A stretch of DNA of 64,000 bases, taken from contig NC_086381.1 of NCBI RefSeq assembly GCF_036588685.1, positions 66,402,001-66,466,000 of the forward strand. Reading direction: 5' to 3'. The position numbers and the translations under genes are program-made. The notes beneath the pieces were generated by a model, which was given only the letters and a program-made list of their open reading frames with translations, did not search any database and was not told where the DNA came from. The stretch is from Mytilus trossulus. Lineage: Eukaryota. Positions 11,455 through 64,000 of the stretch are shown here, piece by piece. How positions within the stretch are numbered: position 1 is the stretch's first letter; each line of letters starts with the position of its first letter.

Positions 11455-12236
11455 TAAAATAATCCTGGTATCTATGATGAGTTGATTTACAACCACTGGG
11501 TCGATGCCACTGCTGGTGGAGATTTATTTCCCCGAGGGTATCAGACGCCCGATAGTCAGCACGTCTGTGTTGACTCATAATTATAAATTTACCGCTCACA
11601 AAATTTTGAAATTTTGCAACACTAAGGCTTTTTTACCTCAGGAATAGATTACTTTAGCTGTATTTGGCTAAACTTTTAGGAATTTTTGGTCCTCAATGTT
11701 CTACAATTTCGTACTTCATTTGACTTTTTAACATTTTTTTATTCGAGCGACACTGATGAGTCTTCTCATGAAGACGAACCGCGCGTCTGTCATAAATATA
11801 AAATTTTAATCCTGGTATCTATGATGAGTTTATTAATAAATAAACCTTGGATTGAAATGAAAATTCCAGACGGAAAGTCCTTTATTATGGTATAATCAAA
11901 GCTCAAACACATCAAACGAATTGAAAACAATTGGCATGTTCCTGGCAGTCAACACTTCGGTTTTGACATGAATATCAATAATGTGGTCATATTTTATAAA
12001 TTTCCCGTGAACAAAAGTTTAAATTTTTCGAAAAACTAAGGATTTTCTTATTCCAGGCAAAGATTTCCTTAGCCGTATTTGGCACAACTTTTTTGGAATT
12101 TTGGATCCTCAATGCTCTTCAACTTTGTAATTGTTTGGCTTTATAAATATTTTGATATGAGCGTCACTGATGAGTCTTATGTAGACGAAACGCGCGTCTG
12201 GCGTACTAAATTATAATCCTGGTACCTTCGATAACT
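11455..12236 (+). mobile_element. Retrozyme-like repeats (two related units) carrying hammerhead motifs
   Basis: aatcctggtatctatgatgagtt repeats at 11461 and 11808 (347 bp apart); hammerhead cores at 11753 (GAAA>GAAC) and 12167. Confidence 0.8.
12161..12204 (+). ncRNA. Type I hammerhead ribozyme (minimal, palindromic stem III)
   Basis: GCGTCA-CTGATGA-GTCT tatgt AGAC-GAAA-CGCGCG-TC-TGGCGT: complete core, stems I and II pair; predicted cleavage after C12198. Confidence 0.85.
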
Positions 12237-12367
12237 ATTAGTACAGATATTCCCTTATATAGAACATGCTTATTGAACATGGTTTTATATTAAAAATGCC
12301 CAACACTGTAGTGTAAACCTAAATTGGTCTTTTTTTTTTTATCTTTATAATAATTTTAGAGCCTTAC

Positions 12368-24200: not shown

Positions 24201-24240
24201 AAATCCGTTATGGATTGGACAACGAAACAAGGTTAACAAT

Positions 24241-34843: not shown

Positions 34844-35989
34844 ATAACGTAACTTCTTGATTAACATAATCATTTTGATTTCATCAGCAAAGTTTTACAT
34901 TCTCTTTCGACTATGGTAAATTTCTGTTTTCCTATCTTTAATGTTTAATCATATGCTTGGTTTGTTTTGTACTTCTTTGTTACATGTGTGTGTGGTTTTT
35001 TTTTCGTTAAGTGATTAGGATTATACCATTTTACCTAATATGTGTGATTGTTTTGTTCATGCATAGTTGTAAATATAACGGATTTTAATACGTGTCGTAT
35101 ACGTGGGAATTTAGCTAGCTATAAACCCAGGTACATTAGAAAATGTCTGTACCAAGTCAGGAATATGGTAGTTGGTATATATTCGTACGATGTGTTTGAT
35201 CTCTTAATTTTGTCTTTTGATTAGAAACTTCCCGTTTTGAGTTTTGATTTTTATGTTTTTTTTTCACGCTTATTAAGAGTAAATAGAATAAATGCATATC
35301 ATTTTTAAATGTAAAGTGTTGAGATATATTTTTTTATCAAATTGATTATGATTTTTTGTATGTTGCAATGGTAGCTAACGTTAAATAATATATAACAAAT
35401 ATAACAATTACAACATCAAAAAATGTCATAATTTGCATAATCAATTTAATTTCAAAAAAGAAAATCTAAATAGAATCAATGCATATTATTTATATATGTA
35501 AAGTGCAAATATATATTTGAAGTCAAACTGATTATGAATGCAAATGTTACAAAAATTGAATAATATACAACAGTTATTACAATTACAAAATCAAAACATG
35601 TCATAATTTGTCATAACTTCGTACTTTATTTGGTCTTTTTTTTTTTTTTTTTTTTTTTTTAACTTTTTTGGATTCGAGCGTCACTGATGAGTCTTTTGTA
35701 GACGAAACGCACGCATCGTGTATACATAAAACTTATTCCTGGTATCTATGATAAGTGTATTTGCATAATACATTTTATGAATAAAGAATATCCAAGTCTG
35801 CTATATACATGTATTATTGCTGCATACCTCGTCGTCATCATCATTAAAGTAATATAATTTAGTTTCACATGCGAGTATATAAAACGATATATAGTAGATA
35901 TAGGAAGATGTGGTGTGAGTGCCAATGAGACAACTCTCCATCCAAATAACAATTTAAAAATTAGTGTCTATTCTTTCTTAAGAGACTTT

Positions 35990-39979: not shown

Positions 39980-39980
39980 T

Positions 39981-42125
39981 GTTCCGATCCATATTATGAC
40001 ATTTTTACTGACTGTAAAATTGTACCGTGGAAAGTGTATTCATATCAAAAAGACGCACACATTTTCAAAACATCCGGTATTACTTCTGGTTACGTTCCTG
40101 TGATTCCCTTTGTTTTTGGTTTAAAATATTGAAAACAACACGTATAATAATTTTATGCGTCCGACGCGTTTTTTGTCTGGATTAATCTTCATCAGGAACG
40201 CAAAAAACAAACATTTGAAATCCGAAGATGCATTAGTTTGTTTGTTTGTCTTCCTTATCGAATTATAATATCGGTTATGTACTGTTGCCTTTATTTGTGG
40301 TATCGTTATCGTTATATCGTCTTTTAACTGGTATTTAGTCTGCTGTACCTTTTGTATTTTGTTGTTTCTCTTGCGCACTCCCTTTATATCAGAAGTGATG
40401 ATTGTTATTTCTTAAAACAGTTTCATTCGCAGTTTTGCATCCTCTGAATAATTTAAGACTTCTTCTATTGACGAAAGTACTATAATTATTTTGACCTAGT
40501 TTTATCCATGTATCCCAAACATCTGAATTTAAAATCCTTCTGCGTTTTTCCTAAAAAGCAAAGTTTCTTTTAATTACACATACCTAACATTATTATCCTA
40601 AACAGTACAATAGTAGTTTTACTTGATTATATTAGAAGATAAAACTACCCGGTTCCAAAGGGAACATTCGTATAGTTAAAAACACCATTGTCTGCAGCAA
40701 ATACAAAATTTCCGTCTTGGTCAGGACTATTTGTACCACTATATACTTCATCCGCTAAAAGGAATTGACATGTAGTTTGTATCATTGGACTTGTAGAAAG
40801 ATTTTTAATCGTATTGAATCGTAAATATCAAAAAGAAAGATCTGGTATGATTGCGGATGAGAAAACAATACATAAGAGACCAACATGAAACATAAATTAT
40901 CAGCCCATATCGCATAGTCAGCTATAACAGGTTCGAAATGACAACCTTAAACAAGTCAAACGAGATAACCAACGACATAATTAATGAATGTACAAAACAT
41001 GAATGAAAAAAAACACGTAACACATAAACAAAAGACAACTGATGAATAACAGGTTTCTGACTTGAACAGTCACAAACAAAGTGAATGTGTTGGGGTTAAA
41101 CAGGTTATCATGATCCCCCTAACCTGAGACAGTGGTGTAATAGTGCAAAATATTAACGAACGATACGAGTCAGTTGAAAAAGCTTACAATGTAACTCATC
41201 AGTTCGATAAAAATAAAAAAAATCTACAAATACAAGTGGACGTGGCCATATATTTGTACATCCTAACATTACAAATATGGTAAGTACACATCTGAGATAA
41301 CTCGCCGTAACTGACAGCTGGTTCAAAGCCACTCACAACTAATGAAAAAGCATGCATATACGACTAAATTATCAATCAGTAAACATCCAACATTGAATTG
41401 ATTTAGTGTGAAGACGTCATAAACAGTCAGAGAAAAATGTGATATTGTGCAATGCCAAGAAACAGGTATTGACACATATCTATGAATGTCTATAATTATG
41501 TAGATAACAATACTATTTCATGTATTTAGTTTGCCTTTAATTTACTGATTTCAAAATCAATATTGATACAATTTAAAACAATATTCAGTGATCTAATAAC
41601 AGTCTTGAATTGGTAACCAAGGATAAGTTTATTTAAAGTTTACCAGGATTGTTTCTGAAACCAAATCTGTTTATCAGTGCATATTTTATTTGTAACTTAA
41701 GTTTGGGAAATACAATCCTTATATGTTGTTTTAGCACATTTTCGACACTTGTTAAGACTAACAATAATTAGGTAGGAATTACTTGCTTTCTACATCTTTA
41801 GTGCTTTAGGCTGGTAGTAAAATCAATAATTACAAAATCTATGTGTTTAGATACATGTCGTTCAACTGATTGATGTTAAGAAGTGAGTATTTTTTACATA
41901 GTTTCTAAGAACTAGTAAAACAAAATGTTTCGTCAATCAATAGACGCTGTTGCTATTAATTACAGCCCAGAAGTCAGCACTGTATGTGCTGACATGAATT
42001 ATCATTGATATGGTTATATCTATAAACTAACTGTTAACAAAATTTGGAGTTTACCTTAGCTGGATTTGGCGAAACCTTTATGAATTTTGGTCCTCAATGC
42101 TCTATAATTTCGTGCTTTATTTGCA
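39981..42125 (-). repeat. Inverted duplicate of C-type lectin intron/exon block 52110-54683
   Basis: Colinear reverse-complement similarity; lacks the HINE at 53306-53610. Confidence 0.9.
40650..40754 (-). pseudogene. Orphan duplicated C-type lectin exon (DEVYSGTNSPDQDGNFVF...VPFGT)
   Basis: Copy of 53853-53957 with W>Y and the donor GT shifted by 1 nt. Confidence 0.85.
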
Positions 42126-42139
42126 TGATATGGCCTAAT

Positions 42140-44623
42140 CAGTGACGCTCGAATCCAAAAAAGTAAAAAAAAAACAAATTAAGTACGAAGTTATGACAAA
42201 TTATGACATGTTTTGATGTTGTAATTGTTATAACTGTTGTATATTATTCAATGTTTGTAGCAATTGCATTCATAATCAGTTTGACTAAAAATATATCTTT
42301 GCACTTTACATATATAAATAATATGCATCGATTCTATTTAGATTTTCATTTTTAATCAAATTGATTAATATGCAAATTATGACATTTTTTGATGTTGTAA
42401 TTGTTATATTTGTTATATATTATTCAACGTTTGCAACCATTGCAACATAAAAAAATCATAATCAATTTGATAAAAAAAATTATATCTTTACACTTTACAT
42501 TTACAAATGATGTGCATTTATTCTGTTTACACTTTAAAAGCATGAAAAAAAATCACAACAATCAAAACTCAAAACGGGAAGTTTCTAATCAAATGACAAA
42601 GTTAAGAGATCAAACAAATCAAACGAATGGAGATCAACTATCATATTCCTGACTTGGTACAGGCATTTTCTAATGTACCTGGGTTTATAGCTAGCTAAAT
42701 TCCCACGTTTACGACACTTATTATATTCCGTTATATTGACAACTACTCATGAACAAAACAATCACACATGTTAGATAAATTAGTATAATCTTAATAACTA
42801 AACACATGTAACAAAGAAGTACAAAACAGACCAAGCATATAATTAAACATCAAAGATAAGAAAACAGAAATTTACCATAATCGAAAGAGAATGTAAAACT
42901 TTGCTGATGAAATCAAAATGATTATGTTGATCAAGAAGTTACTCAGAAAGATTGAATGCAATATTCAAATTGTAACATGTGCAACATATAGATGTACATT
43001 AATTGCATATCTTGCATAATCCGTTTGAAACACGAAGAAATTTGAATCATTGTTGCATGACTCATCGTTAACATTTAAGTATATAAATTAGCCTTAATTA
43101 ACTAAAATAACAAACATTTTGAAAAATATCAGAAGAAAACAGTATACCTTCAAATTAATTTCTGTAAACCAAACTAAAAATATCAGGAGAAACTGATTTA
43201 TTAATTAAATAATAGAAAGCTTAAAGTTTCTGGAAACTATTCTATATATTTATATCAGACATAATAATTGTATTGATAATAATTAGATATTAGAATTTGG
43301 TATATATGAGTGCCAAGGCGAATCTCCAACCAAGTCAGAAGTTGTAAAAGTAATTATAGGTCAAAGTTCGGTCTTGTCACAGAGCTTTAACTCTCACTGA
43401 ACAGCAAGAAACAAAGGACCCTCAAAATAGATATATCTATATAATGAACATAGTAAAACGTTTACCATCATATCGTTATGAATGTAAGTTGAAAGAAATA
43501 CATGTGTATCATAAACTTAAATAATGGCAACAGTTATAAAGTCAAAGATTGATGCAGAAAAAAAATCCGCGATACAAACCAAAACCGAGAGAAAAACGCT
43601 AATTATAGGAGCAAAAACAACGAAACAACAAAAATACTGTGATGCAACTAAATATTTTTCAACAAAATATTCGTATTTCTTTTTATTATTCAATCCACAT
43701 AAAATATACCATTATATTGATTTATAAGATTACTCTAGCTACTTATAGTATAATCTTATCTAACAAGGTAGGAGTCAACTTGTACAACTACTGCTTCACT
43801 GACCTTTCTAAATGGAAGTTAACGTTGTGAATTTTAATCCCTCACGTGCCAGATGCGCTCGACCAAAATCTTAATTGACTAGAATTATTGTCACTTTCCC
43901 TATCGAATGCAAATAGTTGACAGCGAAAAAATAACAAAATACATCTGAAAGTGGCGTTAAATACCAATCAATCAATCACATGTAGGGAGTTTAATGTTTT
44001 TTTAAACAACAACCATAAAAGCGTATCATTTGGAACAATTGTGAACACATTTTGTAGATATTAAAGTAATACATAATTCAATATTGCCTTAGATTATGTT
44101 TTGAAAATCTACAAGTACAGGTAAAAGTGCACATGTTTAACAAAAGATGAAAGATGTCGCACACCCAACCCATTTTACATATTCATTAAACATGTTAAAA
44201 TTGAACAAACCTAAATAGCATACGTCACTATTTATTGTTTCACACCTACAGCATTCCTCGCTTGCATACTTAATTGTATGAGCTATATAAGTAGCCACTT
44301 CGTTTACAAAGTTATCTTATTCGCATTAGGTCTGCTATTACACATTGGGGTAAGTGTTCATTTATTCTCTGGCATAATGAAAATCCATCTGATCAGCTTT
44401 TGTTGTTTTTTAAGATATTCAAACACTCAAAACAAAAATATCCAATTTGTCAATGAACGTTAGTTGAAACTTACGTAAGCTTTCATTACATGTTGTCCAA
44501 TCTTAAGTTTCTTTATTGTGTTTACAATTTCTTTTTGCATACTTTCATTTTTTTAGTGTATGTACTGATGCTACATGCAATTAGTGGTTGAACTAGAAAG
44601 CTGAGTCGTTAGTTTAAAACTTA
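42140..44623 (+). repeat. Inverted duplication block X' with TATA at 44284-44290 and donor at 44350
   Basis: Pairs with 33365-35700. Confidence 0.92.
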
Positions 44624-44859
44624 TCCTTAAACAACGAACCCTTCATGAAAAAGTCTCATACATTAGAATCAAATTACTCATATTGAATAAGTATTAGGTG
44701 TACGGAAAGTCAAATGCACATTTATACAAGATATAGTGCTGTAATTTGTATTTTGGAAACAATAAAACTGAGAAAAGAATTGGGGTATGATTCAAAAGAT
44801 AACCACCCGACCAAAGAGCAGTCAATAGCCGAAAGAGAAATACCTGAACGTACAAAATG

Positions 44860-44949
44860 TATAAAATGTCTACATATTCTGAACTAACTCCATTCTCAAG
44901 TATAAGTTTCATTGCTGAGACACCGAACTCGTCTGTTTGGTTTATGACG
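44860..44949 (+). promoter_or_regulatory. TATA box and non-coding first exon of the Cys-rich peptide gene
   Basis: TATAAAA at 44860, Inr-like ccattc at ~44890, G|gtgagt donor at 44950, acceptor tttcag ending at 45031. Confidence 0.6.
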
Positions 44950-45043
44950 GTGAGTTTGATTTGGTGTATTAGTATATTTAACGAGCTTGAAGATCATTGT
45001 CATAATCGATGTTTACAAATTTTCGTTTCAGTATTAAAGTATC

Positions 45044-45107
45044 ATGATGCAATTTTGTTGTTTGATTTTAATCCTTCTCTGTACAATTGGTGTTTCTACT
45101 GGCAGAA
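45044..45107 (+). CDS. Secreted Cys-rich peptide, signal-peptide exon (MMQFCCLILILLCTIGVSTGR)
   Basis: Typical signal peptide; A|gtaagt donor, phase 1. Confidence 0.8.
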
Positions 45108-45640
45108 GTAAGTATTGTTAGTGTTTTAACGTATACATGTAGGAATTGTCATTACTTATACACCATGATCACTAAAGTACTAAACCAGTTTATTTTGTTT
45201 TATAATTAGTTACGCATAACATTAAGAATGAACCTGATTTCATACCAACACATACTTGTATTAACGTGCAAGACCACTTTGAATCAATAAATGGAAATTA
45301 TATGAAGTCAACGCATACAACGATTGTATTCAAAAGAGTTGAGGGGATATTTCAAGTATACACATGTTGGTGTTTGAAAGATACAGTACGAAAATACCAT
45401 TAGCGTAACCTTGGTGTTTATTCACAGTTTATATTTCGTTTGTGGTGTCATAATATGCTATCGCAAATCGATTGGAGTTTTTATTCTGCGTTTCACATGT
45501 AGTAATATACTATTATATCATTTATTTGTATATTTCTATGTGCTGAGTGTTGTTGTGTTTCGAAAGCTATTTTCTTATTTATTAAGGCAAAGTTTGGTGC
45601 TCATAAATGTCAAATTGTATTCATAAACTGTATCCTTTAG

Positions 45641-45766
45641 GACTCACTAAAAATTGTGTTGCGTCAAATGGTACATGTGGCCGAAAAGGTGAAACTTGTG
45701 ATGATGCATTTGGTGAAGGATGGATCGAAAGAGGAAAATGTTGTTATGGAAAACCATGTTGTAAAT
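45641..45766 (+). CDS. Secreted Cys-rich peptide, core exon (RLTKNCVASNGTCGRKGETCDDAFGEGWIERGKCCYGKPCCK), beta-defensin-like spacing
   Basis: cctttag acceptor, gtaagt donor, phases 1/1; C-x6-C-x6-C-x13-CC-x4-CC. Confidence 0.85.
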
Positions 45767-47875
45767 GTAAGTAAACACATAAAGCATGATCAATAGTTCT
45801 TGTCCCTTCTATTAAAAAATGAAACATACAATGTAGGCACGTGTCTTAATAAAATATCATGTTGTAAATAGAATTAAACAATTTTATGCTGCAAGCAAAT
45901 TATATGATATATTGTTTTGATTATCTCAAGTGCAAAGAACACCATTGGAATCGAATAATATATGTGTTTTATTCCGATGGCAGTGAAATCTGAAATTTAA
46001 AACAAAAGACACATCAAATGCCCTGTTTTTACATTTCCCTTTATATTTTAAATTTAAAACACGATGTTTTTGTTGCGACAAGGTCTATGACATTGTTAAA
46101 TGTATTGTAACAGTTCCTGACATAGTTTATTGCAAACAATTGTAAGATATTCAGTTAGAAAATGAAATAAAAACTGTGTAATGCAAAGTTGACCTTATAC
46201 TGATTTGGCTTTAATTGGTATACCATTTTTGTAAGGGACAGAACCTTTGATGTCGACAAAATTATGGCCAATGTGAAAAACTGCTAAAATGATGGAAATC
46301 AAATATGTACATAAAAAACAATTAGATCTTTTGAATTAATTTTAAACCTCAGCAGTGTAAATAATTAATAACTGATTTCGTGTTGCTTGCCTGTTTATCT
46401 CATTAATTATTTATCGGGTTTACTACCCGCATTTGTTCTTTTTGTTTTCTTACATATTTTATTATTGTCCTTAAATTGAATTACATATTTGACACCATTT
46501 ATAAAATTATGTCAACAAAATATATCAAAACATTATTTAAACACAAGTTTCTCAAACAATGGCGATAATATACACTTGTTTGTACATTTTTATGAAAAAC
46601 AATGCCGATAATGAACGCACGTGTTTGTGAATTTAATTGGAGTCATCACTAAGGATACTTTAAAAGAATAACATCAAATTGTACACTCATATGCGGCAAA
46701 GGTGAGCGAAAAGTAATGCGACGTGATCAGTCAAACTAACTTTATTAGATAAACTCATAAAGGAACAATCGTTTTCATTTGTCAATTCAAACATTCGACC
46801 TCACACCTGCGAAAATAAAACACGTGTACTCTAAGTTAAACGGACTGGTCAGTATTCACGTAGCCGGTCAAGGTTGTTATAATTCATAATTTTGTGCAAT
46901 AGTAAAACTTTAAAACTTATAAGTAATATGTTTCACATCGAAATATTTAATTGTTCAACTGTTCACGTAGCCGGTCAAGGTTGTTATAACCTTCCATAGT
47001 AGTATTCACGTACGTGATTATGTTCTTGATTATTCCATAGCAATTCTAACTTTGATACATGTGCATGTAAAGTTCATTGAATTCATAATTTTGTGCAATA
47101 GTAAAATTTTAAAACTTATAAGTAACAGGTTTCACATCGAAATATTAAATTATTCAACTGTGTTCTCATTTGGTTCTGAATTAAGAGATCTACCATTTTT
47201 ATTTTTGGACGGGGGACTTAGATAAAACATGTTGTTCCTTTGTGAGTATTTATCTCTGTCCTGTCTTTTCATTTTTTGGTCTATATAGTCCTGCATTTTT
47301 TTGTCATCCGGTCTTTTTTTGCCAAGTTGTTCATCCTGCTTTTTCATATATTTCGTAAGTTTTAGGTATTCGACTAAAAAAAGTGATATTTTTTCTGATC
47401 CAGGAGATGGCAAACCATGGCACAGTGGAAGGAATATACTTTATAAACTCCAGCGATATACTTTATTAATTTTTATAATTAACCGTTTTGCTACTCTCGG
47501 TTTAAAAACGATCGTAACTTATATATTGTAAATATTTAAATAGTTACATAAAAAACAATCAATTTTTAAAAGCGTGTTTATTCATTTAATGTATTGATAA
47601 AAAGCGGGTGGGTCCCTTGTTGTCATGCATTCAGTCATCCTTATTTGTAGTTTCTTAATATTTCGATTCTCAGTTTATCTTACATGTATAATTTTGTCTT
47701 TTATTTTAAATACGCATGCATAATACACGTCACTTTTGGGGATAGTTCATCTATTTTTTCGGTATGAAATTAAAAAATAAGTTTTCAGCCAATTGAAATA
47801 AAAAAACGTACATTTACATTTTTTCTTATGAACTAGTCTACGATTATTCTTACAATTATATATTTATTATTTCAG

Positions 47876-47958
47876 TTCCACACATACAAAATAACAAATT
47901 TCGCCGATGTTACAAATCAATCCTTTTACATCAACATGCCTTCACTGAATTCATTTGA
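47876..47958 (+). CDS. Probable terminal exon of the Cys-rich peptide (FPHIQNNKFRRCYKSILLHQHAFTEFI*)
   Basis: tatttcag acceptor, phase 1; AATAAA at 48344. Confidence 0.5.
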
Positions 47959-48678
47959 ATTTCGTGGTGACATTGATAGTATATTGCATACTACGTCTTC
48001 ATACACGTGCAAAAATGATACGATTATTTTTGCTTTGTTTCTGTGTTTTGGGGACAATTTGCTCCGGAAATGATAGATAATTTCTGAATGACCAAACACT
48101 AAGCTTCTTCAAGTGTAACGTGTGTGGGTTGTATCTGATTCTTTCAACCAATGAAATGAGTCGTAACAAATTGTTTGTTTGTGATACGCCAGAATGATAT
48201 CAATGAACTATCAAACGTTCAACTTGATTGCATTTTACTGTAAGCTAAGTTTCAGATTTCAATGTCCGTTACTTTATAAACATATTTTCGACAATAACGA
48301 TTTAAACACGTCGCGAATTATTTTATGTTATCTGTAAAAATACAATAAATATAATCATTTTGAAACTAGATCTCTTGTTAGCTTCTTTTATGCAACTTTG
48401 CATGCATGACAGATTTTTTAGGTGATTTGTTTGGCCAATCTCATGGTTCGAGATCACAGACGCGCCTGCTCTTTCTCAATAATACGTTTAAAGAAAGTTG
48501 TACTACTTTTGGGATAAATTATATCAAAATAATTGAAAATTTCATCCACTCTAATACAAAATGTGGACAATTTATATATTGATGTTAAGGGGATCTATAA
48601 AACTGTTGACAACTTTTGAAATGCTAGATTGTAACCAATTTCAGTTGAACCAAATGACTACTCGTGTATAAAAACTAA

Positions 48679-50118
48679 GACCGTGTTCAACTTGAACTAA
48701 ATTCGGTGTTGTGTTAGTGTAACTTACACGTAAACTAATCACAATTGCGTTCCCATTGATAAAACTCAATGTTTACATGCAGTTTAAATCATGTTTTATC
48801 TACACACAGTCGATAGTCAATGTAGGCCTTTGTAGGGTTAAGTGTACACACAACTAGGCATTTAGGACATAGTTTTACGGTGTACATATTTAAGAAGGAT
48901 ACTATTTTTGAGTAAAATTGATATTTTTGATAATTATAAGTAAAGTTCTTTACACAAAATTGTTGTCTAAATTTTACTGATTTTTTTTTGTTAAAAAAAA
49001 TTAATGTACTTTATTTGATTCTGATCAAGACTCAAATCAGCATCATTGCCGAACCCATAAGACAGCAACCAATTGATTTTCAGGGGGAGGCTATTATAGT
49101 TGAGTATAAAACATAAAGGCAAGGGGTGGGTGTTGAGCTATGGATTTTGTTTTGGAAACAAAAATGTTTCCAGTATTTGGCCTTGAAAAAAAAATTGTTT
49201 GTTTCAACCTCAGCTGCCACTATATATAGTGCTAAAATTGATTTCGACTTCTCACCAAAATTTCTCCTGAAAACAATCAATAGCCCACGCACCCTTCCCG
49301 CTCCCTCTCCCCAAAAAATGAAAAAAATGCTGCCAAATTCATTTGAAAAGGTCTTCCCGAATCGACTTGACGTACACAGATATATTCGCCACTGGTCTTT
49401 ACTCAAACAACTATAAATGCATGACTAAAAAAGTGTGAGGTAAATGATATGTTTGTCTATCTCAGATCCGTTAAATATCATTTAAAATAAATATAAAAAC
49501 GTTACCCTATTCTTTTACCAAATACTCCTTTGAGAAGAAATACCATTTGAAACAAACAGAAAAGACAAAAATGTAGTGATCCCTAATATCGGCTGTAAGG
49601 ACGCTGCTGCAGCTAACGTTTTCTAATGCGTCATCGAGACATCTGTTGTATTAAAATGGCTTTCATAAAGTAGCAACCACTTAACTTAAAAAAGGGAGAT
49701 TTTTTATTTTTTTTTTATCTGAGTCAGATTATTTTCGCGCGTACGTTTTTATTCCTTTTTTTTCGATGCTGGTGATCAAATACTTTTTTTCAATATTTAA
49801 CACTATAATATCATCTGTATGACCATTTTTTTTTATCAAATTGTGGGATCGGAATATTTCCATTTCCATCCTCATCCCCCTTTTGAAGTCAAATGGTTGT
49901 TCCCTTACCGGTAGAAAAATTGTCCAAAAATTTTGAATTCAGTTCTACGTAATAAAAATTCAAATGACATATAGTTTACAAGTGGGAACAAATCTTATAT
50001 ACAGGTAGCTAAACAAGGTGTATAGATGGGAACAAATGTAATGTGAAACCTAGTGTACACTACACTAAACTAATTTTAAACATGTTTACTCTACACGGCG
50101 TTTGGTGTGAACACAGCC
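48679..50118. mobile_element. PIF/Harbinger-like non-autonomous element with TAA target duplication and nested small inserts
   Basis: TAA|gaccgtgttca ... tgaacacagcc|TAA. Confidence 0.7.
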
Positions 50119-51658
50119 TAAGATATCTAAACTTAAGTCATGTCATATCTGAAAATATTTATTGTACTTTATATATATCGATAACGATGATACAAATGAG
50201 GTATGCATAGTACTCACCTCCTATCAATAATCATATTATTTTGCGAGAATGCAGTTTATTGGTAACTTTTTTTTTCAAAGAAGTTGTACCACCTTTGGTG
50301 TGATATCCTAGACAAACTGATTACTGTTTTTCATTGACGAACTTTGTTTTGCCCTATCTAGGTGCGTACAGCTGCCTTATACAGTACAACAATTCTATAT
50401 AGGTTTATCACTGTGTGTATGTCTTCAAAATACCATGGGATGAATTTGACGAAATAGTTGTCTTCTTCTTGACAGGTTACATTACATTTTCATCCTGTCA
50501 ATGTTACATTTAACCTAAAAATATTTGTTAATGTCATAAGTTAATTCAATGTTGTAAATTTTGTTTTAACATTCAACTCTTTTTGTGTCATATAAATAGT
50601 AGAATGTGTTCCCACTACAACTTGTCCTGAAGGATATGCGCAGTTAGATAACCAAACCTCTAGTCCTAATTGCTTGTTTATAGTTGATTGATTTATATTG
50701 GTGTTTAATGCTGCTTCCAGCAATATCTTCTGAACATGTTATTTTTCTGCAAAACAACAGGTCTCAATGTAAAGCGAATAGTTATACCATGAAAATAATC
50801 ATCGTTAACCAAGTTATCTGTTCAGATCAAATTTTAAAACATTAATACGAGAATTATTTGATAGCGATGGAAAAACATGAAAAACTAATTGGTCTATCTA
50901 AAAATACATTTATATTGTATACATTGAGGATAAACCAATATGCATTATCAATTCAATGTTTGAAAAGATGATTTCACTATTACTGATGGAATTTCATGGG
51001 TATATCATAAGCTCGAATATTCACATAGGCTTGTAGGAAGGCTTTGTCGAAACCATGAGATCAAATAACCACAAAAGTATATTTATTCCCAAAGCCACAG
51101 AATTTAGTAGCATCGAAATTAAATGAATCCATAGAACTTAAAGTAACTTGATAAAAATCGCTCGCAATACTCAATTGCAGTACTAATTAGGGACAACATC
51201 AAAAGATCGATGTAGGATAAACAACTTAAATCAAATAGTTTGGGGGTGGGGGAGGGGGTTAAAATTCTGCAAGTTTTGTATATCTCAAATCGATTTTTAC
51301 ATATATCTCTATTGGTAACTCATTGTTTTCAAAATTAAGTTAAGAAGGGGTTGGGGGTCAGTGAAAAAAACAAACTATGTGAATTAAGTTTTGTATCCTT
51401 CATCTCCGGTGTAAAAAATGTATTAATGTTGTATTATCTTTATTTATCTTATTAATGTACAGTTTGTTCCTAAATTCTAGTCGATATGTACCATGACACC
51501 AGGAGCTTCTCTATGGAGACCAAATACTGAAGCAGAAGTTATTGCTGTCTTTGAACAGTTTCGATTTTTCAGTAAGTTATTATTTAAAAGTAACTAATTA
51601 TTCTTTTTTATCATTGTAAATAAACTCATCATAGATAACAGAACTAAATTTTGTATAA

Positions 51659-51702
51659 ACGCCAGACACGCGTTTCGTCTACAAAAGACTCATCAGTGAC
51701 GG
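51659..51702 (-). ncRNA. Type I hammerhead ribozyme
   Basis: CCGTCA-CTGATGA-GTCT tttgt AGAC-GAAA-CGCGTG-TC-TGGCGT. Confidence 0.8.
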
Positions 51703-52020
51703 TCGAATCCAAAAAAGTTAAAAAGGCCAAATAAATCACGAAGTTGAAGAGCATTGAGGACCAAAATTCCTAAAAGTTTTGCCAAATCCAGCTAAGGTAA
51801 TCTATGCCTGAGGTAGAAAAGCCTTAGTATTTCGAAAATTCTAAACTTTGTAAACAGTTCGTTTATAGATATAGCATATCAGTGATAATTCATGTCAGCA
51901 CACAAAACGTTACTACTGAGCTTTTGATACCCTCGGGGAAATAGATCTCCACCAGCAGTGGCATTGACCTAGTGGTTTTAAACAAACTCATCATAGATAC
52001 CAGGACTAAATTTTGTATAT

Positions 52021-52064
52021 ACGCCAGACGCGCGTTTCGTCTACAAAAGACTCATCAGTGACGC
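52021..52064 (-). ncRNA. Type I hammerhead ribozyme
   Basis: GCGTCA-CTGATGA-GTCT tttgt AGAC-GAAA-CGCGCG-TC-TGGCGT; complete core. Confidence 0.85.
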
Positions 52065-53305
52065 TCGAATCTAAAAGTTAAAAAGGCCAAATCATGAAAA
52101 TAAAGTACGAAATTGAAGAGCATTGAGGACCAAAATTCCTAACCGTTTTGCCAAATCTAGCTAAGGCAATATATGCCTGAGGAAGAAAAGCCTTAGTATT
52201 TCAAAAACTCCAAATTTGTAAACAGTTAGTTTATAGATATAACCATATCAATGATAATTCATGTCAGCACATACAGTGCTGACTACTGGGCTGTAATTAA
52301 TAGCAACAGCGTCTATTGATTAACGAAACATTTTGTTTTACTAGTTCTTAGAAACTATGTAAAAAATACTCACTTCTTAACATCAATCAGTTGAACGACA
52401 TGTATTTAAACACATAGGTTTTGTAATTATTGATTTCATTACCAGCTTATAGCACTAAAGATTTAGAGAGCAAGTAATTCCTACTTAATCATTTTTAGTC
52501 TTAACAAGTGTGGGAAATATGCTAAAACAACAGATAAGGATTGTATTTCCCAAACTTCAGTTACAAATAAAATTATACACTGAAATACTAATTTGGTTTC
52601 GAAGTTAAGTTGTTCCTGTAACAAACTTATTTCAAATAGTAATGGCACCCCCTCTATTTTACGGAAATGTTGTTTACCGCGCCAGGAAATTAAGAAACAA
52701 TCCTGGTTAACTTTCAATAAACTTATCCTTGGTTACCAATTCAACACTGTCATTAGATCACTGAATATTGTTTTATTTGTATCAATATTGATTTTGAAAT
52801 CAGTAAATTAAAGACAAACTAAACAGTATTGTTATCTACCTGTTTCTTGGCGTTGCACAATATCACATTTTTCTCTGACTGTTTATGACGTCTTCACACT
52901 AAATCAATTCGATGTTGGATGTTTACTGATTGATAATTTAGTCGTATATGCATGCTTTTTTATTAGTTGTGTGTAGCTTTGAACCAGCTGTCAGTAACTG
53001 TGAGTACTCTCAGATCTGTACTTACCATATTTTTAAATTAGGATGTACAAATATCTGGCCACGTCCACTTGCATTTGTAGATTTTTCTTATTTTTATCAA
53101 ACTGGTGAGTTATATTGTAAGCTTTTTCAACTGATTCTTATATATATTTTGTACTGTTACACCACTGTCTCAGGTTAGGGGGGATTCTGATAACATGTTT
53201 AACCCCAGCACATTTACTTTGTTTGTGACTGTCCCAAGTCAGAAACCTGTAATTCAGAAGTTGTCATAATTTGTTTATTTGTTTCCTGTTTGTTTTTCAT
53301 TCATT

Positions 53306-53610
53306 TTTATGCCCCACCTACGATAGTAGAGGGGCATTTTGTTTTCTGGTCTGTGCCTCCGTTCGTTCGTTCGTTCGTCCGTCTGTGCGTCCGTCTGTGC
53401 GTCCGTTCGCTTCAGGTTAAAGTTTTTGGTCAAGGTAGTTTTTGAAGAAGTTGAAGTCCAATCAATTTGAAACTTAGTACACATGTTCCCCATGATATGT
53501 TCTTTCTAATTTTAATGCCAAATAATAGTTTTGACCCCAATTTCATGGTTCACTGAACATAGAAAAATATAGTGCCAGTGGGGCATCCGTGTACTATGGA
53601 CACATTCTTG
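53306..53610 (+). mobile_element. Helentron-associated non-autonomous element (HINE/DINE-1-like)
   Basis: subTIR atgccccac/gtggggcat, internal (GTTC/GTCC)n microsatellite, 3' hairpin gtgt...acac, inserted in a T-run; empty site in the paralogue near 40995. Confidence 0.8.
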
Positions 53611-55525
53611 TTTTTACATTCATTAATTATGTCGTTGGTTATCTCGTTTGACTTGTTCAAGATTGTCATTTCGAACCTGTTATAGCTGACTATGCGATAT
53701 GGGCTGATAATTTATGTCTCATTTTGGTCTCTAATGTATTGTTATCTCATCGGCAATCATACTAGATTTTCCTTTTTTATATTTACGATTCAATACGATT
53801 ATAAATCTTCCTAGGAGTCCTATGATACTAACTATATGTCAATTCCTTTTAGCGGATGAAGTATGGAGTGGTGCATATAGTCCTGACCAAGACGGAAATT
53901 TTGTATTTGCTGCAGACAATAGTGTTTTTAACTTAACGAATGTTCCCTTTGGAACCGGTAAGTTTTGTCTTCTAATATAATCAAGTAAAATAACTATTGT
54001 TTAAAATGTACTGTTTATAATAATAATGTCAGGTATGTGTAATTAAAAGAAACTTTGATATTTATGAAAAACGCAGAAGGATTTCAAATTCAGATGTTTG
54101 GGATACATGGATAAAGCTGAAATGATATATATCAACGGGACGACAATGACCCAACAACACAAACAAGACATAGTAATTTTGTCAATAGAAGAAGTCTTAA
54201 ATATTTCAGAGGTTGAAAAAGTGCGAATGAAACTGTTTTAAGGAATAACATTCATCACTTCTGATATAAAGGGAGTGCGCAAGAGAACAAAAACAATAAA
54301 CAAAAGGTACAGCAAACTAAATACTAGTTAAAAGTCGATACAACGATAACGATACCACACATAAAGGCAACAGTACATAACCGATATTCTGATATCATAT
54401 TTCGATAAGGAAGACAAGCAAACGAACTTATACATCTTCGGATTTCAAATCTTTGATTTTGAGCGTTCCTGATGAAGGTTAATCCAGAAAAAAAAAACGC
54501 GTCGGACGCATGAAATTATTACACTTTTTGTTTTCAATATTTTAAACCAAAAGCACAGGGATTCACAGGAACGTAACCAGAAGTAATACCGGATGTTATG
54601 AAAATGTTTGCGTCTTTTTCTATGCATTCACTTTCTACTGTACAAATTTACAGTCAGTTAAACTGTCATAATATGGATCGGGACACTATCAATTAAATTG
54701 TATATAAGACATCTCTTCTGATATCTAAAGATCAAAGTCTATGAAAAGTCAGAAAAATGTAACCAAGTTAATTGAAACATTGATATATCGACCATTTTCG
54801 TCAACTTATTTGTGATGATAACATGGTTTCTTATGTGGTGTCATTTTCAGTCGGTCATGTCTCTGTTAGAGCGGATTTTGAATAAGACGAGCATCCCTAA
54901 GAATGAAGTCAGTAGTGTGTGAAATTACCCGATTACAAATGTGCTATCTACACACAAACTTAGGTATGAGGAATAACAACTAGAGTCGACACTACAGAAG
55001 ATAACATGTCACCATCACGAATTGTTTGACCGAAACGATGTGTGTTGATTCAACTCACTCACCACTTAATTGAGAGATGAAAACACCATACGAAATGGCA
55101 GAGGGACTATTACGAAACATGCATCTGGTAAAGTCGAATCTGTAAATTGAGAGTACCATACTCAGACGAGTAATTTTCCGAAAATGACTGTTTTTTTCGA
55201 AATGACGTCGACAACATTTCTAGAATGCCTCTTTTGAAGAGATGATAACGTTCAATGACGGTTTCTATACTGTTTATGTTTTCTTTAAACCATGATATCA
55301 GATGGTGAGAAACTGTGAATATATATATATATATAAATATTAATTGATTCAAATACCAGGATGTTCTTATATGATGAATTTTACCGATTTCTTGTCCTTC
55401 TACAGAAGCTATTGGGTATATTTTTGACAACGGCTTAGTCTATCAAAACTGTCTGACTGTTTTCCTTTTTTTCTGATTTACATTTAATTGTTTTCATACA
55501 ATATTCAGCATCTGTTTTAAAATCA

Positions 55526-55865
55526 GAGAGCTGCGGTGTAGTGGTTAGTGCATCGGACTACTAACACAAAGGTCCTGGTTCGATTCCCGTTCGGGGATGA
55601 ACATTTTAGAGACTGATTTTCGGCTCTCACTTGACACCATTTGCGAGTACGGTCTTTGGTAAACGATGATAGGCTGTCGGATGGGGACGATAAATGGCTG
55701 ACCCGTGTTAAGAGAGAGCCATATCTTTTGCAGATTAAAGACACTCTTGTAGATTTTGAAAAAAGAGTAGGCTTATACCGCGACAATGCAGCACTCGCAC
55801 CCGACAAGTGGAAAGGGATTAATATAAGTTGCAAGACTTGTTTCCCAATCCACTATAAATAAATA
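55526..55865 (+). mobile_element. tRNA-derived SINE (Deu/Nin-domain-like central region)
   Basis: A box ggtgtagtggtt, B box ggttcgattcc, (taaa)n tail. Confidence 0.75.
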
Positions 55866-57039
55866 CAAATGTATGTTTAAACTCCAATAAATTTTCTTTT
55901 TTTCTTTTTTTCAGGTTTTTTTTATTTCGAAAACCACTGTATTACTATTGATGTCTTTAATGGTAGTTCATTTTGGGGTGATGAAGTCTGTGCGAACGAA
56001 AATCAATATGTTTGTAAATTTCCATGGGTTAGTAGGAACATAATTTGTGAAATTATTTGATAGAACTGATTTCTTTTTGTATCTTATCATGCTTATTGAA
56101 ACAAAGTCACTTATCTACAGTCCATTATGTTATCATGTATAACCAAACATCAATCTGTATTATTAGTTTGTCTTTTTGCAAATTAAGCGAATTTAAACAA
56201 AGAAGCTACATCATAAAAATGGAAATGGGTCATATCATGTGACTGATTTTTTTACATGGATTTTTCGAGGAAACGGTAGTTTTTTTCCCAAAAAAAGTAA
56301 CACATAAAGTGTGTTCAATGGATAAGACTATCATCAATGTGTCCAATGAACGAGGCGTACAACGTATCATCAGTCTGTTTAATGAATGAGTCTGATCATG
56401 ATCGTGTTAAATGCATGGTAATTATCGTCGAATTGATCATAACATGTACATAAGAAGCACAAAGGGGCAACCTTTAGAAGCAGGAGCTCATCCTTTGTTT
56501 TGACGGCTTTCGATGAAGTTCACATTTTTGTGGGTATCAATGTTTCGTGGAATGAGGAAAACTTGCATTTTCGTGAATAGTTTATTTCGTAGTATTGCAA
56601 AAGTCTGCCTATATTCTCATTCCTTTGGAAAATAAATTATTCAAAAAGTTAAATAACTAAAATACCGAACTCCAAGGAAAATTCTAAAACGGAAAGCCCT
56701 TATAACATGGCAAAATCAAAAACAACCTAAGGTTCCACAATTGATTCACATCGGAGCCAGTTATTGTACTTTGTTTTTAAAACGGCAAATAATTTCTGAG
56801 TTACCCTTTAGCTGTAGGTTTCTTGCAAATGTATTACACTTTTTTTTGTTCATGTTTGGCTCTTTTAATAAAAGTTGGTTGTAAGAACATGGTTGAAAAA
56901 AGTGGTGTCTTTCTCATTTTGACATACCTAATAATTTGAGAAATATTTTGAACTAAATTTTGTACACTCAAGATTTGTACCGTCGTAAGCTAAAGCTAAT
57001 TGACCTGGCCTCGTGATAGTGGAAGATATTAGCAGGCAA

Positions 57040-59998
57040 AATCGAGGGAATTGTGCAAATGATGATACAAGCATGAAAATTACCACAAAGCATCATTATT
57101 ATATACTTTTAAAGAAACAACTGCTGGCCATTTAAAAAAAATATTTTTTCAAGATGGCCACCGCCGTTTTCTAAAATGGCTGTTTTTTTCAGTTTGAAAA
57201 TACTGATTTTTTCAGGAAAACTTTTCGTTTACCTTTTTTTGGTGAAAAACAGCTGTCAGGTTTGGTAGCTACCTTCTTTACATGTAAATAATTCACTAGA
57301 CATGAGTATTTGATACATACAGGGTTTGCGCATGCGCGAAAATGTAACAATATTCATTAAAAAATATTTAAACTATTTACTATAAAATAAGTGATTTGAG
57401 ATTTTCAATTATATTATGATTTGGTTTGATAACATTTTTCAAGGTTATAACACACATGATTTAACAATTTTGCGCATGCGCAAACTATTTATAGACTAAT
57501 GAGTGATTTGTATGCACTACCAGGGCAAACTGGTATAAATCGTAGATCATCTCATTACTCTTAAAAGCAAGTAAGTGTAAAATCTATGATGCCACTGTTT
57601 AAAAAACAAGCCAGTTTAGTTGCAATGATCAGATATTTGATAGATGAGACGGAAAATGTGGTTAAAACGAGAAAAACATCAATAGTAACGGCAGATCAGC
57701 CACTTTTAGTAATGGATATTCAGTTGGAATTGCCTGATTTGTACAGAGAGATAAGTTTATCGTCATGTAAGGTGGATTTCACATTTCACATTTCTCTTTG
57801 ACGTTTAATGATTTGATAGACTGGCGTAAAAGAATATAGTCATCTCTACCACAGTTCAATTCCTGGCGTTCAATTATAAAATAAGAACTTCTTGTGAATT
57901 TGGTAGTATATGCTTATTTCATGAGTCAGATTTTGTACAAACAGTCCATATAAAGCATGATACTGTATTCATTTAGGTTTTGATCGTGTAACATATTCTC
58001 GATCTCGACCGAGATATGGCTTCCCTTCTCACAGGTGACAATTGATTTTGAAAATGATAATTTTACTGTACGAAAGACAAGAAAATATTTTTCTTATAAC
58101 ACAATTGATCAGACAAAAACAGAATAATGCAATTGTAATGGGCGATGTGTTGTCATAGGTTTAACCGGTTTAACCGAAGACCTCATTTAGACGTATTGGT
58201 GGTAGCTAACCCAGAAGTCAGTAGACTATCAGATAAATTTACAAGATCTAGTGGTTGGAGGCATTCTATAATAGATGAACGACTTAATGAACACGCAAGG
58301 GTTTCTACAAAAAGATCAAAGGCAAATAATTTGAAGATCGTTTGAAGCAAATACAAAACGAAGGAGAACCGGTTTCTTATAACCAGATTAAAAAGAACAA
58401 CTCTTAGTATGTCGGTAAAATAAAACTGCAAACGTTTTTGTAAAAAACAAAGCTAGAGCTCTTAGATATCTTTTCTAGACTTTTATTTTTTGTCGCAGTG
58501 GGCAAATTAATTTGGAATATTTCTTAATCCATAAAGACAAACTACTCTTCCGTTTTTGTATTTGGATGTCATTGTAAACAGTGGTATTAAATCGGTGCCA
58601 ATTGATAAACTTGAAACATTTTGTAATTTGCAGATCCAAATTCTGACGCATTTATCGTTGATAGAGCAGCAATGGTTAATTCCAGGCCACCTTGTAGGGA
58701 ATCAATATTTGATGATTTTGCAATTGTGTTATACGGCCTTAAATAAAATCTTGCATCGATAAGTATTAAAGAGTATATATTGTGTTAGATTTACTAAATG
58801 AATCATTGAAAGGCTAGATGTGAGAAGACAACAGTTGGGTTCTGGAGTAGTTTTCTCTATGAAGATGACAACGAAACGAAATTTTTCAAGTGTCTTGCCG
58901 ACAGAAATGCTTCTGTAGAGACTAATAAGGATACTTTCCAGCTACCCCTTGTAAGCATGGAGAAGCAGATATACGAATGTTTGTCCATGTTCGGCCTGAT
59001 TATGAAAATTGTTGTAGGACGGTAATTTAAGGTAGCACCGACACAGATGTAGTAGTATTAAGAATTGCAGCACTACAAAAATATGGTGGAACAAACTGTG
59101 AATAGGTTTTGACAGGAATGAAGACTTTTGATGGCTTCCTGTACGTGATATATCAAATGCGTTTGGTCCTTGTGTAGCTACTCTTCCTTTCATTCATACA
59201 TTCAGTGCATGTGACACTAAGGGAAACGTCAGTTTGGATGACATAGGAAGTATTTCAACATATACGGGACGTACTTATTTCTTTGCTGAAGTATAAAGAC
59301 ACATACAAGGATATAACAGAAGCATTTATTTGCATCATGTATTACAGAACAACATCACTATTTGCTGTTAACGAGGCACGATGTAAATTTTTACCAAGGA
59401 AGCAGCGGCATTGTGACGTAGTTCCGCCTACAAGAGTTTTTTTTTCGGAGCACATCCAAAGAGCAGCGTATCAAGGAGGATAAGTTTGAGCTCAGCCTGA
59501 TTTATGTACCAATTCATGAACACTGGGGTTGGATGAAAGAAAAAAATCGAGGACTTCTTCGGCTACCGTTAAAGTTGCATCCTCCTGTCGGGAACTTTTG
59601 AAATGAGGAGGCGAAAAATCCAGTTGTGTTGGTGACTGTAAATGCTACCGTTCTGTCCTTGCTTGTACGAGTTTAGTTATTGGCTACTGTCCGATAATTT
59701 TAAGACTCGAACCTGTCTTTCTAACAAAACTAGGCATTTAATCTTAACAAAGAATGTGATATCACTTGTTAAGTTGATAAAAATTATAAAAAAAAAAAAA
59801 ATTTCAAACATTTTGCCGCCATTTTGAAACCGGAAATCACTCTTTTTTGTCATTTATGTGTTGTTTTTCCGTAATTTAGGAAATGTAATTTACGTTTAAT
59901 AAAACCTTTCATTGGATAATACCTATAACACAACTTTCAAAGATTTACAACTGGATATGACGCCATTTGCAAAATGATTGGTGGCCATCTTGAAAAAC
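57040..59998 (+). mobile_element. Decayed Academ-like DNA transposon
   Basis: Fragments PLF...AMI...TADQPL and VNEAR...PPT...HIQRAAYQG; inverted subterminal caagatggcc motifs. Confidence 0.65.
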
Positions 59999-60004
59999 CC
60001 TTTA

Positions 60005-60495
60005 AATACCCTCGGGGACTGATAGTCAACAAGCAGAGGTATCGACCCAGTGATGTATAAATTGAAAACAACACGTCATATAACTTAATGCGTCCGACGC
60101 GCTTTTCTGCGTTTACCTTCATCAAAAACGCTCAAAGCCTTACATTGAAATCCGAGGGAGTTGAAACTTTTGTTGCTTTATAATTACAAAGTGTATTAAC
60201 GGACATTTTAGAAAGGTTAGCTATAAATCATGTCAGTACCGAAGTACTGACTACTGAGCTGATGAAACCCTCGTGAACTGATAGTCCACCAGCAGTAGTA
60301 TTGACCCACCGATGTAAAAAATTGAAAACAACACGTCAAATAGTTGAATGCATCTGAAGCGGTTTTCTTGATTTACCGTCGTCAGGAACTCTCAAAGCCT
60401 AACATTTGAAATCCGAGTGATGTATAAGTTGAAGAGCTGGTTTACAAAAATACCTTAAATAAAAAGCCAAATTCATCTAAGGTCAACTTTGCTTG
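60005..60495 (-). mobile_element. Tandem retrozyme-like repeat, third hammerhead type (decayed); related copies at ~40125-40230 (-) and ~54455-54545 (+)
   Basis: ~260-bp repeat; core pattern GCGTTC-CTGATGA-agg..-GAAA-agcgcg-TC-GGACGC with point changes in each copy. Confidence 0.65.
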
Positions 60496-63307: not shown

Positions 63308-64000
63308 TGTAATAACTGCATTAAACAGTTTTTATGGAAAGTTGACAATCAAATTCCATTGTTTGTTCACTTGAAAGATGCCCCAAAGGTCAAAGCGAAA
63401 AAGCTTTTACTAAAACTCACAAAATAAATAAAACACTATCAAGTGAGCGATATATCTAAATCGATGAGATTACTTAATTTCTGTCGACTGAATTTCCAGT
63501 TTCTTAAATGTTCAATCATCCGAACGTATTGTTTTTAAAGTAATCTTTCAATTATAATATACAAAATTGTTCAAATGAAAAAAATAATAATAAGATAACC
63601 GATCGGATAAACTTAACCTGGAACGATTTGCTAAAAAAGACAACTTAATTCAAATAAGTTGAAACACGTTTATTCATGATTATAAAAAAAATACTATTGG
63701 ACACAGTCAGACGACAATAGCGAAGCAATTAAGATGTGCTAAAGACATTCTTGGTTTTATATACCATATACAGTAAATCTTTAAATCACTCCATAATTAA
63801 TTTCTATTTAGCGCTGATCACATTTAAATATCTAAATCACATTACAAAAAAATAATTCAAAGGAACGCCAAACCCCAAAGAGGAAAAATCAACCCACTTC
63901 AGAGGTATCGACAAATGCTATCTTTTTGTATATATGATATGTTATTTCGAAATATTGTACCTTAAGATTTATGAATGAATAAAAGTGCACAGCATACTGT

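What the first reader, a model, noticed from the sequence alone, without database searches (positions are those of the whole stretch)
51618..52290. Tandem hammerheads able to excise a 362-nt RNA monomer (retrozyme/circRNA precursor)
Two complete cores on the minus strand, with predicted cleavage after 52027 and after 51665, exactly one unit apart. The palindromic stems III could pair with each other as a dimeric ribozyme. Known: non-LTR retrozymes in animals, including mussels, yield small circular RNAs this way. This is the most activity-competent copy in the window.
Basis: partly seen in the sequence, partly recalled or inferred. Interest (0 to 1): 0.72.

Follow-up and report, generated by a model that had tools for sequence, protein, structure and literature searches.

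The report
Aged copy of mussel hammerhead retrozyme
Two intact self-cutting hammerhead RNA motifs lie exactly 362 bases apart in a repeated element in mussel-like DNA; it is most likely an old copy of the published mussel retrozyme family, and although it would likely release a 362-base RNA if transcribed, nothing found here shows that this copy is transcribed.

Summary
Two type I hammerhead cores on the minus strand would cut after 52027 and 51665, 362 nt apart (shuffles give 0.02 per window). They lie in a 679-bp, 1.9-unit insertion of a repeat scattered through the window, in Mytilus-like DNA. Size, GC and layout match the published mussel non-LTR retrozyme (PMC7229834). A double-hammerhead fold is predicted 10-12.5 kcal/mol below two single ones, but the palindrome is a general feature of animal hammerheads. 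The copy looks old: its units differ at 28 of 306 aligned bases, and its 5' half was duplicated locally and has since diverged 6-9%. Two RNA runs hold relatives, almost none of this copy's letters, nothing in its unique flanks and no ends at the cut sites (possibly another species, so inconclusive). Side result: all 8 terminating copies compared stop within about 50 nt past the cut, which suggests a fixed, Penelope-like start of reverse transcription. The scan's notes hold two sea-squirt retrozymes; none match this sequence.

The parts
51614..52292 (-). Whole insertion: 679 bp, about 1.9 head-to-tail units of a ~362-bp non-coding repeat, 5'-truncated; no target-site duplication found
   Evidence: self-alignment 52292-51976 vs 51922-51614, 86.6% over 320 columns; TSD search
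52027..52292 (-). Unit A, 5'-truncated (starts at about position 105 of the monomer), ending at the first predicted cut
52021..52064 (-). Hammerhead A, type I: stem I 6 bp, CUGAUGA core at 52058-52052, stem II 4 bp with 5-nt loop, GAAA, stem III 2 bp plus palindromic tetraloop, predicted cut after 52027
51665..52026 (-). 362-nt cut-to-cut monomer (37.6% GC), the predicted excision product; no ORF of 55 aa or more
51659..51702 (-). Hammerhead B, type I: stem I 5 bp, intact core at 51696-51690, one change in loop III, predicted cut after 51665
51614..51664 (-). 51-nt tail past the last cut site; it ends where the other terminating copies also end, at an AC-rich stretch, followed by AT-rich flank
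   Evidence: table 7
41956..42136 (+). Paralogous copy of unit A's 5' part, carried with about 2 kb of its flank in a local inverted duplication (39980-42136 vs 54685-52084)
   Evidence: flanks 5.6% and 8.5% diverged, element part 7.1%
11460..11844 (+). Related copy, one unit plus tail, 77.6% identical; GAAA core changed; one stem I pair changed on both sides (U-G to A-U)
11947..12240 (+). Related 5'-truncated copy of a second subfamily with one intact hammerhead (cut after 12198); the unmatched ends of the RNA reads resemble this subfamily by eye
   Evidence: table 7
35656..35765 (+). Short related copy: T tract, decayed hammerhead and tail

Best explanation
This is a 1.9-unit insertion with two intact hammerhead cores 362 nt apart, most likely an old, neutrally decaying copy of the mussel non-LTR retrozyme family that was likely inserted by a Penelope-like reverse transcriptase. 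Shown by sequence: two cores, unit length, 5' truncation, a 3' end 51 nt past the last cut, many related copies, and divergence between the units. Inferred life cycle, from the published family: read-through transcription of a tandem gives a precursor; the two hammerheads cut it, probably as one double hammerhead, releasing a 362-nt RNA with 5'-OH and 2',3'-cyclic phosphate; a host RtcB-type ligase closes it into a circle; a borrowed reverse transcriptase starts about 40-50 nt downstream of the cut junction, copies through the ribozyme and stops at a variable point, here after almost two rounds. Odds: retrozyme-family copy about 0.9; cleavage if transcribed in vitro about 0.6; a real source of circles in the animal today about 0.15.
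For: Intact cores and spacing far above chance. Host is Mytilus-like: all 5 named hits among the 8 for the window's chitin synthase exon are Mytilus, best 70%. PMC7229834 reports about 5000 type I hammerheads in 350-390-bp repeats in M. galloprovincialis, self-cleavage at about 0.1 per min, circles on northern blots and RtcB ligation of a dimer-derived monomer. High copy number: related pieces at about ten places in the window, and summed contig depth 10^4-10^6 over the element against 3-43 in the unique flanks (summed depth is not a copy number). Dimer ensemble is 12.5 and 10.3 kcal/mol below two single hammerheads in two precursor lengths. Age: 28 mismatches in 306 aligned bases between units; 5' half shared with a local duplicate 5.6-8.5% diverged; two intact 13-nt cores are expected by chance at this divergence with probability 0.30. 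Shared 3' end: 8 of 8 terminating copies compared (6 in the window, L001, L002) fall to 0.34-0.36 identity against the run-on sequence from cut+53, while the two run-on copies stay at 0.8-1.0 (background 0.44); 186 contigs of DNA run X4 leave the element at 51984 (cut+43) into sequence with 0.43 agreement.
Against: Identity to the published mussel sequences (MN642551-76, supplementary figures) could not be checked. The monomer is not more structured than shuffles (linear z +0.73; circular z +0.81, 47 of 60 shuffles fold as well), whereas published circles are called highly self-paired. Both ribozyme folds lie above the free ensemble (dimer by 7.9-10.8, single by 20.5-21.1 kcal/mol). Cores plus stems intact in both copies has probability only 0.04 under neutral decay if no stem change is allowed (one stem I change is in fact present, and 2 differences in 44 nt is not significant, p 0.17), so some constraint is not excluded. 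No target-site duplication. No sequence link to the RT fragment at 18005-18454 (best hit E 0.22), so the partner is unidentified. Only 1 of 9 predicted Xenopus dimers cleaved in vitro (bioRxiv 10.64898/2026.07.22.740005).
Confidence: 0.82

Rival explanations
1. This copy is a live source element: it is transcribed in some tissue and yields a 362-nt circle with its own letters.
For: Both cores and both stems II are intact, and it is the only such pair in the window. The dimer fold is available. Family circles are abundant and heterogeneous in mussels. In run X21 the ribozyme strand seems in excess in some bins (first mate on + 442 vs 154 at 51772-51852, but 180 vs 174 at 51934-52014).
Against: At five positions inside the monomer nearly all RNA reads show the other letter: 51944 129 of 129, 51861 40 of 40, 51882 21 of 21, 51924 120 of 121, 51919 105 of 107. 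Only 12 of 3495 and 32 of 4014 laid reads are 99% alike or more. RNA depth is 0-0.19 in the unique flanks 51448-51609 and 52339-52581. No pile-up of ends at either cut site. No Pfam family above its cut-off in 74 of 74 ORFs of 55 aa or more in 44000-64000, and no Pol III B box. Caveat: the RNA runs carry the label organism D, whose DNA matches the flank with 16 differences in 136 bases, so they may lack this allele.
Confidence: 0.15
2. The repeat is the terminal repeat (pLTR) of an autonomous Penelope-like element, left behind as truncated copies; circles are a by-product and uncut multimers are the real template.
For: Partial tandem with a 5'-truncated upstream copy and a fixed 3' end is the layout described for Penelope-like elements (PMC8557442; PMC11167929). 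In the anole element, ribozyme cleavage was not needed for insertion in vitro. Xenopus retrozymes are homologous to pLTRs.
Against: No ORF of 55 aa or more lies in the element. No similarity to the window's RT fragment region. Two ribozyme motifs were absent from the one supplementary file of PMC8557442 that could be searched, and its Naiad_Mgal row has no HHR_core note. The ribozyme has a helix III, unlike minimal Penelope ribozymes. This rival differs from the best reading mainly in the template, which sequence alone cannot settle.
Confidence: 0.2
3. The tandem arose at the DNA level, by local duplication or recombination between single copies, like a satellite, with no RNA intermediate for this locus.
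For: The region is rich in local duplications and inversions, and one junction (42135) joins two pieces of this repeat. The Xenopus preprint discusses local amplification.
Against: The 3' end sits at the same place relative to the cut as in unrelated single copies, and no flank is repeated between the units.
Confidence: 0.1
4. Chance match or assembly artefact.
For: Both Rfam scores are under the gathering threshold.
Against: 0.02 hits per shuffled window. The units differ by 9%, so it is not a collapsed or doubled read. A contig of DNA run X1 matches 51812-51954 with 0 differences and another spans the 5' junction with 3 differences in 173 (X1 may not be independent of the window's source).
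Confidence: 0.01

Closest known systems
Mytilus galloprovincialis non-LTR retrozyme (Cervera and de la Pena 2020, PMC7229834; parts 1-4 of 6 read, supplement not readable)
   Same: Type I hammerhead in a 350-390-bp, low-GC, non-coding tandem repeat in mussel DNA; two similar ribozyme variants in the genome; ribozyme not formed in the predicted circle (stem I and II pair probabilities 0.003 and 0.034), as the paper says of some mussel circles; a dimer giving a monomer is the construct the authors already tested.
   Different: This is one aged copy; sequence identity to the cloned circles is untested; its monomer is not more structured than shuffles; the shared 3' end about 40-50 nt past the cut is not mentioned in the parts read.
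Penelope-like elements, e.g. anole PAc (PMC11167929, passages read) and Naiad (PMC8557442, passages and one supplementary file searched)
   Same: Partial tandem with 5' truncation; insertion ends at a fixed site downstream of a hammerhead cut, in an AC-rich stretch, beside AT-rich DNA.
   Different: No RT or endonuclease ORF; ribozyme has a 2-bp helix III; no autonomous partner identified; Naiads are reported to lack canonical hammerheads.
Amphibian retrozymes (axolotl Rtz331/353; Xenopus, bioRxiv 10.64898/2026.07.22.740005, parts 1-3 of 5 read)
   Same: Tandem type I hammerheads about 330-350 nt apart that work better as dimers; proposed Penelope mobilisation.
   Different: Axolotl monomers cleave poorly (6% and 22% in an hour) while a mussel repeat clone cleaved at about 0.1 per min; the preprint studied no mollusc.
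Rfam RF00163 Hammerhead_1
   Same: Whole model matched, stem III of hammerhead A identical to the consensus.
   Different: Scores 32.5 and 27.6 bits are under the gathering score of 34.

Membership tests
Type I hammerhead ribozyme | CUGANGA and GAAA core, UH cut site, three helices with open helix I | tested here: met
Type I hammerhead ribozyme | Self-cleavage at the predicted bond | not testable with these tools
   needs transcription in vitro; no read ends piled at the sites, which standard RNA-seq need not show
Type I hammerhead ribozyme | Loop 1-loop 2 tertiary contact | not tested
   PMC7229834 says mussel motifs lack most of the conserved nucleotides
Metazoan non-LTR retrozyme | One type I hammerhead per unit in head-to-tail repeats of 150-450 bp | tested here: met
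   362 nt, two cores
Metazoan non-LTR retrozyme | GC under 50% and no coding capacity | tested here: met
   37.6% GC; no ORF of 55 aa or more in 51614-52292
Metazoan non-LTR retrozyme | No LTR, primer-binding site or polypurine tract | tested here: inconclusive
   the only long repeat is the unit itself and no 4-bp-type TSD was evident; PBS and PPT were not searched for
Metazoan non-LTR retrozyme | Dispersed, high-copy family in an animal genome | tested here: met
Metazoan non-LTR retrozyme | Expressed as monomer-length linear and circular RNA | tested here: inconclusive
   relatives are in RNA; the go-back joint 52070-51711 (3 RNA reads) also stands in DNA contigs, so it shows no circle
Metazoan non-LTR retrozyme | Highly self-paired circle (a described property from MFE predictions, not used as a defining test in the parts of the paper read) | tested here: not met
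   z +0.73 linear, +0.81 circular
M. galloprovincialis retrozyme family in the strict sense | Sequence homology to the cloned circles MN642551-MN642576 | not testable with these tools
   supplement too large; motif search of papers gave 0
Autonomous Penelope-like element | RT plus GIY-YIG ORF | tested here: not met
Autonomous Penelope-like element | Partial-tandem pLTR layout with 5' truncation and fixed 3' end | tested here: met

The most novel reading that the evidence does not exclude
Mussel retrozyme insertions record their own mechanism: a Penelope-type reverse transcriptase starts at one fixed AC-rich site about 40-50 nt past the ribozyme junction, on the RNA circle, and rolls round it a variable number of times (1.9 here). 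That would be a genomic footprint of retrotransposition from a circular RNA in an animal, and would name the RNA element that the unknown partner enzyme recognises.
Probability: 0.35. Interest if true: 0.55.

Novelty: already known. Interest (0 to 1): 0.2.

Why it matters
As a finding it adds one more copy to a family whose cleavage and circles were shown in mussels in 2020. What could matter is the side result. How animal retrozymes are copied back into DNA, and by which enzyme, is still open in both papers read. A fixed 3' end just past the cut site makes that testable: it predicts the start site of reverse transcription and a shared motif with the autonomous partner.

Tried and rejected
Whole-genome search: no genome is held for this window, so copy number and ends could not be counted genome-wide. 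Rfam at gathering level: 0. Tandem Repeats Finder did not report the array. Pattern scans: 2 loci in metagenome contigs, 0 in prokaryote genomes, 0 in viral contigs; the two loci are of the second subfamily (95-96% to the 12 kb copy) and were picked by the ribozyme pattern, so they are not a random sample. Antisense hammerhead (symmetric replication): no core in a usable arrangement on the opposite strand of three loci; rejected. TSD: best match 9 nt with 1 mismatch, not flush with both ends; rejected. Pol III promoter: no B box, 15 runs of four or more T on the sense strand. Host gene nearby: 3 of 74 ORFs gave Pfam hits, all under the curated cut-off; short exons would be missed. Local folding did not rank this copy clearly above the 12 kb copy (cost of the ribozyme fold 6.7-8.8 for A, 6.9-10.8 for B, 4.4-10.2 kcal/mol for the 12 kb copy). 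Rows left out of the 3'-end count: of 13 candidates, the 21.9, 14.0 and 5.1 kb pieces were dropped as too weak to anchor, and the two 60 kb units because they are a far-diverged relative; the lower 60 kb unit's alignment runs to cut+106, which is against a universal end. The 6.6 kb piece is short (34 nt). The L001 end at +152 is over-extension by a lenient aligner (searches place it near +40). The 41.9 kb copy is a duplicate, not an independent insertion. Literature on the shared 3' end: and the texts read did not show it; subscription papers, Repbase and the unread supplement of PMC7229834 (its Figure S9 models insertion) may hold it. PMC5785218 was not held.

Full report
Observation. The minus strand holds two complete type I hammerheads. 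A descriptor scan of both strands found 3 in the 64 kb window: cores at 52058 and 51696 on the minus strand (cuts after 52027 and 51665, 362 nt apart) and one at 12167 on the plus strand; 100 dinucleotide shuffles gave 0.02 on average. Rfam RF00163 matches both at E 4.7e-6 and 1.9e-4, just under its gathering score. Each has stem I of 5-6 bp, stem II of 4 bp, and a stem III of 2 bp closed by a palindromic tetraloop.

Anatomy. The insertion runs from 52292 to 51614: a 266-nt 5'-truncated unit A, the 362-nt monomer, and a 51-nt tail past the second cut. The monomer is 37.6% GC and holds no ORF of 55 aa or more. No target-site duplication was found. Related pieces lie at about ten other places in the window, and the better preserved ones fall into two subfamilies. 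The 11.8 kb copy shows one stem I pair changed on both sides, a single hint of constraint on the fold in the family.

Host and family. The window's chitin synthase exon has Mytilus proteins as all 5 named hits of 8 (best 70%) and as the top hit of 76 longer proteins; the species is not determined. PMC7229834 (parts 1-4 of 6 read) describes about 5000 type I hammerheads in 350-390-bp repeats in M. galloprovincialis, cleavage of a cloned repeat at about 0.1 per min, abundant circles in gonad and mantle, and RtcB ligation of a monomer cut from a dimer. Sequence identity to the cloned circles could not be checked.

Dimer. The two palindromes pair at -12.8 kcal/mol, while each hairpin costs +2.4. 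In the real precursor the double hammerhead is 10-12.5 kcal/mol below two single ones but still 8-11 above the free ensemble (nearest-neighbour energies ignore tertiary contacts and magnesium). PMC4209133 (passages) calls a short palindromic helix III and dimer folding usual for animal type I hammerheads; PMC7761336 (passages) says most invertebrate motifs also cleave as monomers. The dimer is plausible and not new.

Is this copy active? The units differ at 28 of 306 aligned bases plus 14 gap columns. The 5' half and about 2 kb of flank exist again, inverted, at 39980-42136, diverged 5.6-8.5% in the flank and 7.1% in the element, so the insertion is older than that duplication and the element part shows no extra conservation. 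Two intact cores are expected with probability 0.30 under neutral decay; the 44-nt ribozyme has 2 differences (p 0.17); with all stem bases counted the probability is 0.04. The monomer folds no better than shuffles. Laying 4 of the 24 listed runs on 50800-53200 at 88% likeness: of 12.7 and 8.7 million RNA records read, 3495 and 4014 lay on the stretch, which also holds other repeats; 12 and 32 were 99% alike or more; at five monomer positions 415 of 418 reads showed the other letter; the unique flanks had depth 0-0.19; none of the 3 listed pile-ups of ends was at a cut site; both strands were read; the one go-back joint seen in RNA also stands in DNA. These runs may come from a species or allele without this insertion, so the test is inconclusive for the copy, and shows only that relatives are in RNA. 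As a base rate, 1 of 9 predicted Xenopus dimers cleaved in vitro.

Mechanistic side result. Anchored on a conserved motif past the cut, 8 of 8 terminating copies compared lose similarity to the run-on sequence by cut+53, while two run-on copies stay alike (5 weak or far-diverged pieces were left out, one of which aligns to cut+106). Independently, 186 contigs of DNA run X4 leave the element at cut+43 into diverse AT-rich sequence, although a rare letter in this copy at cut+44 may shift that point by a few bases. 5' ends vary. A fixed 3' end with variable 5' truncation is what target-primed reverse transcription from a defined start leaves (established knowledge). Because the end lies beyond the cut, the template cannot be the linear monomer; it must be a circle or an uncut multimer (inference). 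The anole Penelope element starts reverse transcription internally, downstream of its hammerhead, in an AC-rich stem loop, inserts into AT-rich DNA, and does not need cleavage in vitro (PMC11167929, passages). The Penelope link for retrozymes is already proposed, but I did not find the 3'-end signature in the texts read or in searches; unread supplements may contain it. No partner was identified: an RT-like fragment at 18005-18454 (4 of 12 homologs carry PF00078; Penelope-like from recall only) shares no sequence with the repeat.

Verdict. Real feature, known kind of system in the group where it was first characterised, and probably an old copy. Interest 0.2. The most novel reading, a fixed start of reverse transcription on the circle by a Penelope-type enzyme, has probability about 0.35 and would deserve about 0.55. 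The scan's notes hold two similar sea-squirt cases and nothing on this genome or sequence.

Noticed in passing
window 51614, ~11834, ~12240, ~20819, ~35765, ~6618; L001 ~223; L002 ~866: All these copies end within about 50 nt past the hammerhead cut site, with variable 5' ends.
   Followed up: partly
window 42135: Junction of two inverted duplications (39980-42136 = 54685-52084; 42135-42942 = 35691-34849) that joins two retrozyme pieces head to head; the repeat may have seeded the rearrangement.
   Followed up: partly
window 32270-54685: Dense local duplications: 32270-33370 vs 50119-48721, 33365-34673 vs 44623-43326, 35972-37729 vs 38221-39977; also 1-2972 vs 16026-14314.
   Followed up: no
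window 59950-60500 (-): About two far-diverged tandem units, 72-82% alike to parts of the monomer, with decayed ribozyme remnants; possibly an older related family.
   Followed up: partly
window 20176-20819 (+): A retrozyme copy split inside its hammerhead by another repeat (20318-20749) that recurs at 31810, 40824 and 53705.
   Followed up: no
window 2231-9417 (-): Exons of a chitin synthase-like gene, closest to Mytilus proteins.
   Followed up: partly
window 18005-18454 (+): Fragment of a reverse transcriptase (homologs 50-62% identical, some with PF00078); looks Penelope-like from recall, not tested.
   Followed up: partly
window 23753-24301 (+): Mutator-like transposase fragment (PF20700, E 1.2e-6).
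   Followed up: no
window 62389-62682 (-): ORF with a weak 7TM receptor match (PF10324, E 0.001, under cut-off).
   Followed up: no
L001 1-223: A marine metagenome contig carries the retrozyme end joined to sequence that looks bacterial by eye; host DNA carry-over or a misjoin is likely.
   Followed up: no
window 51124-51447 and 52582-53200: Other high-copy repeats beside the element, also seen in RNA reads.
   Followed up: no
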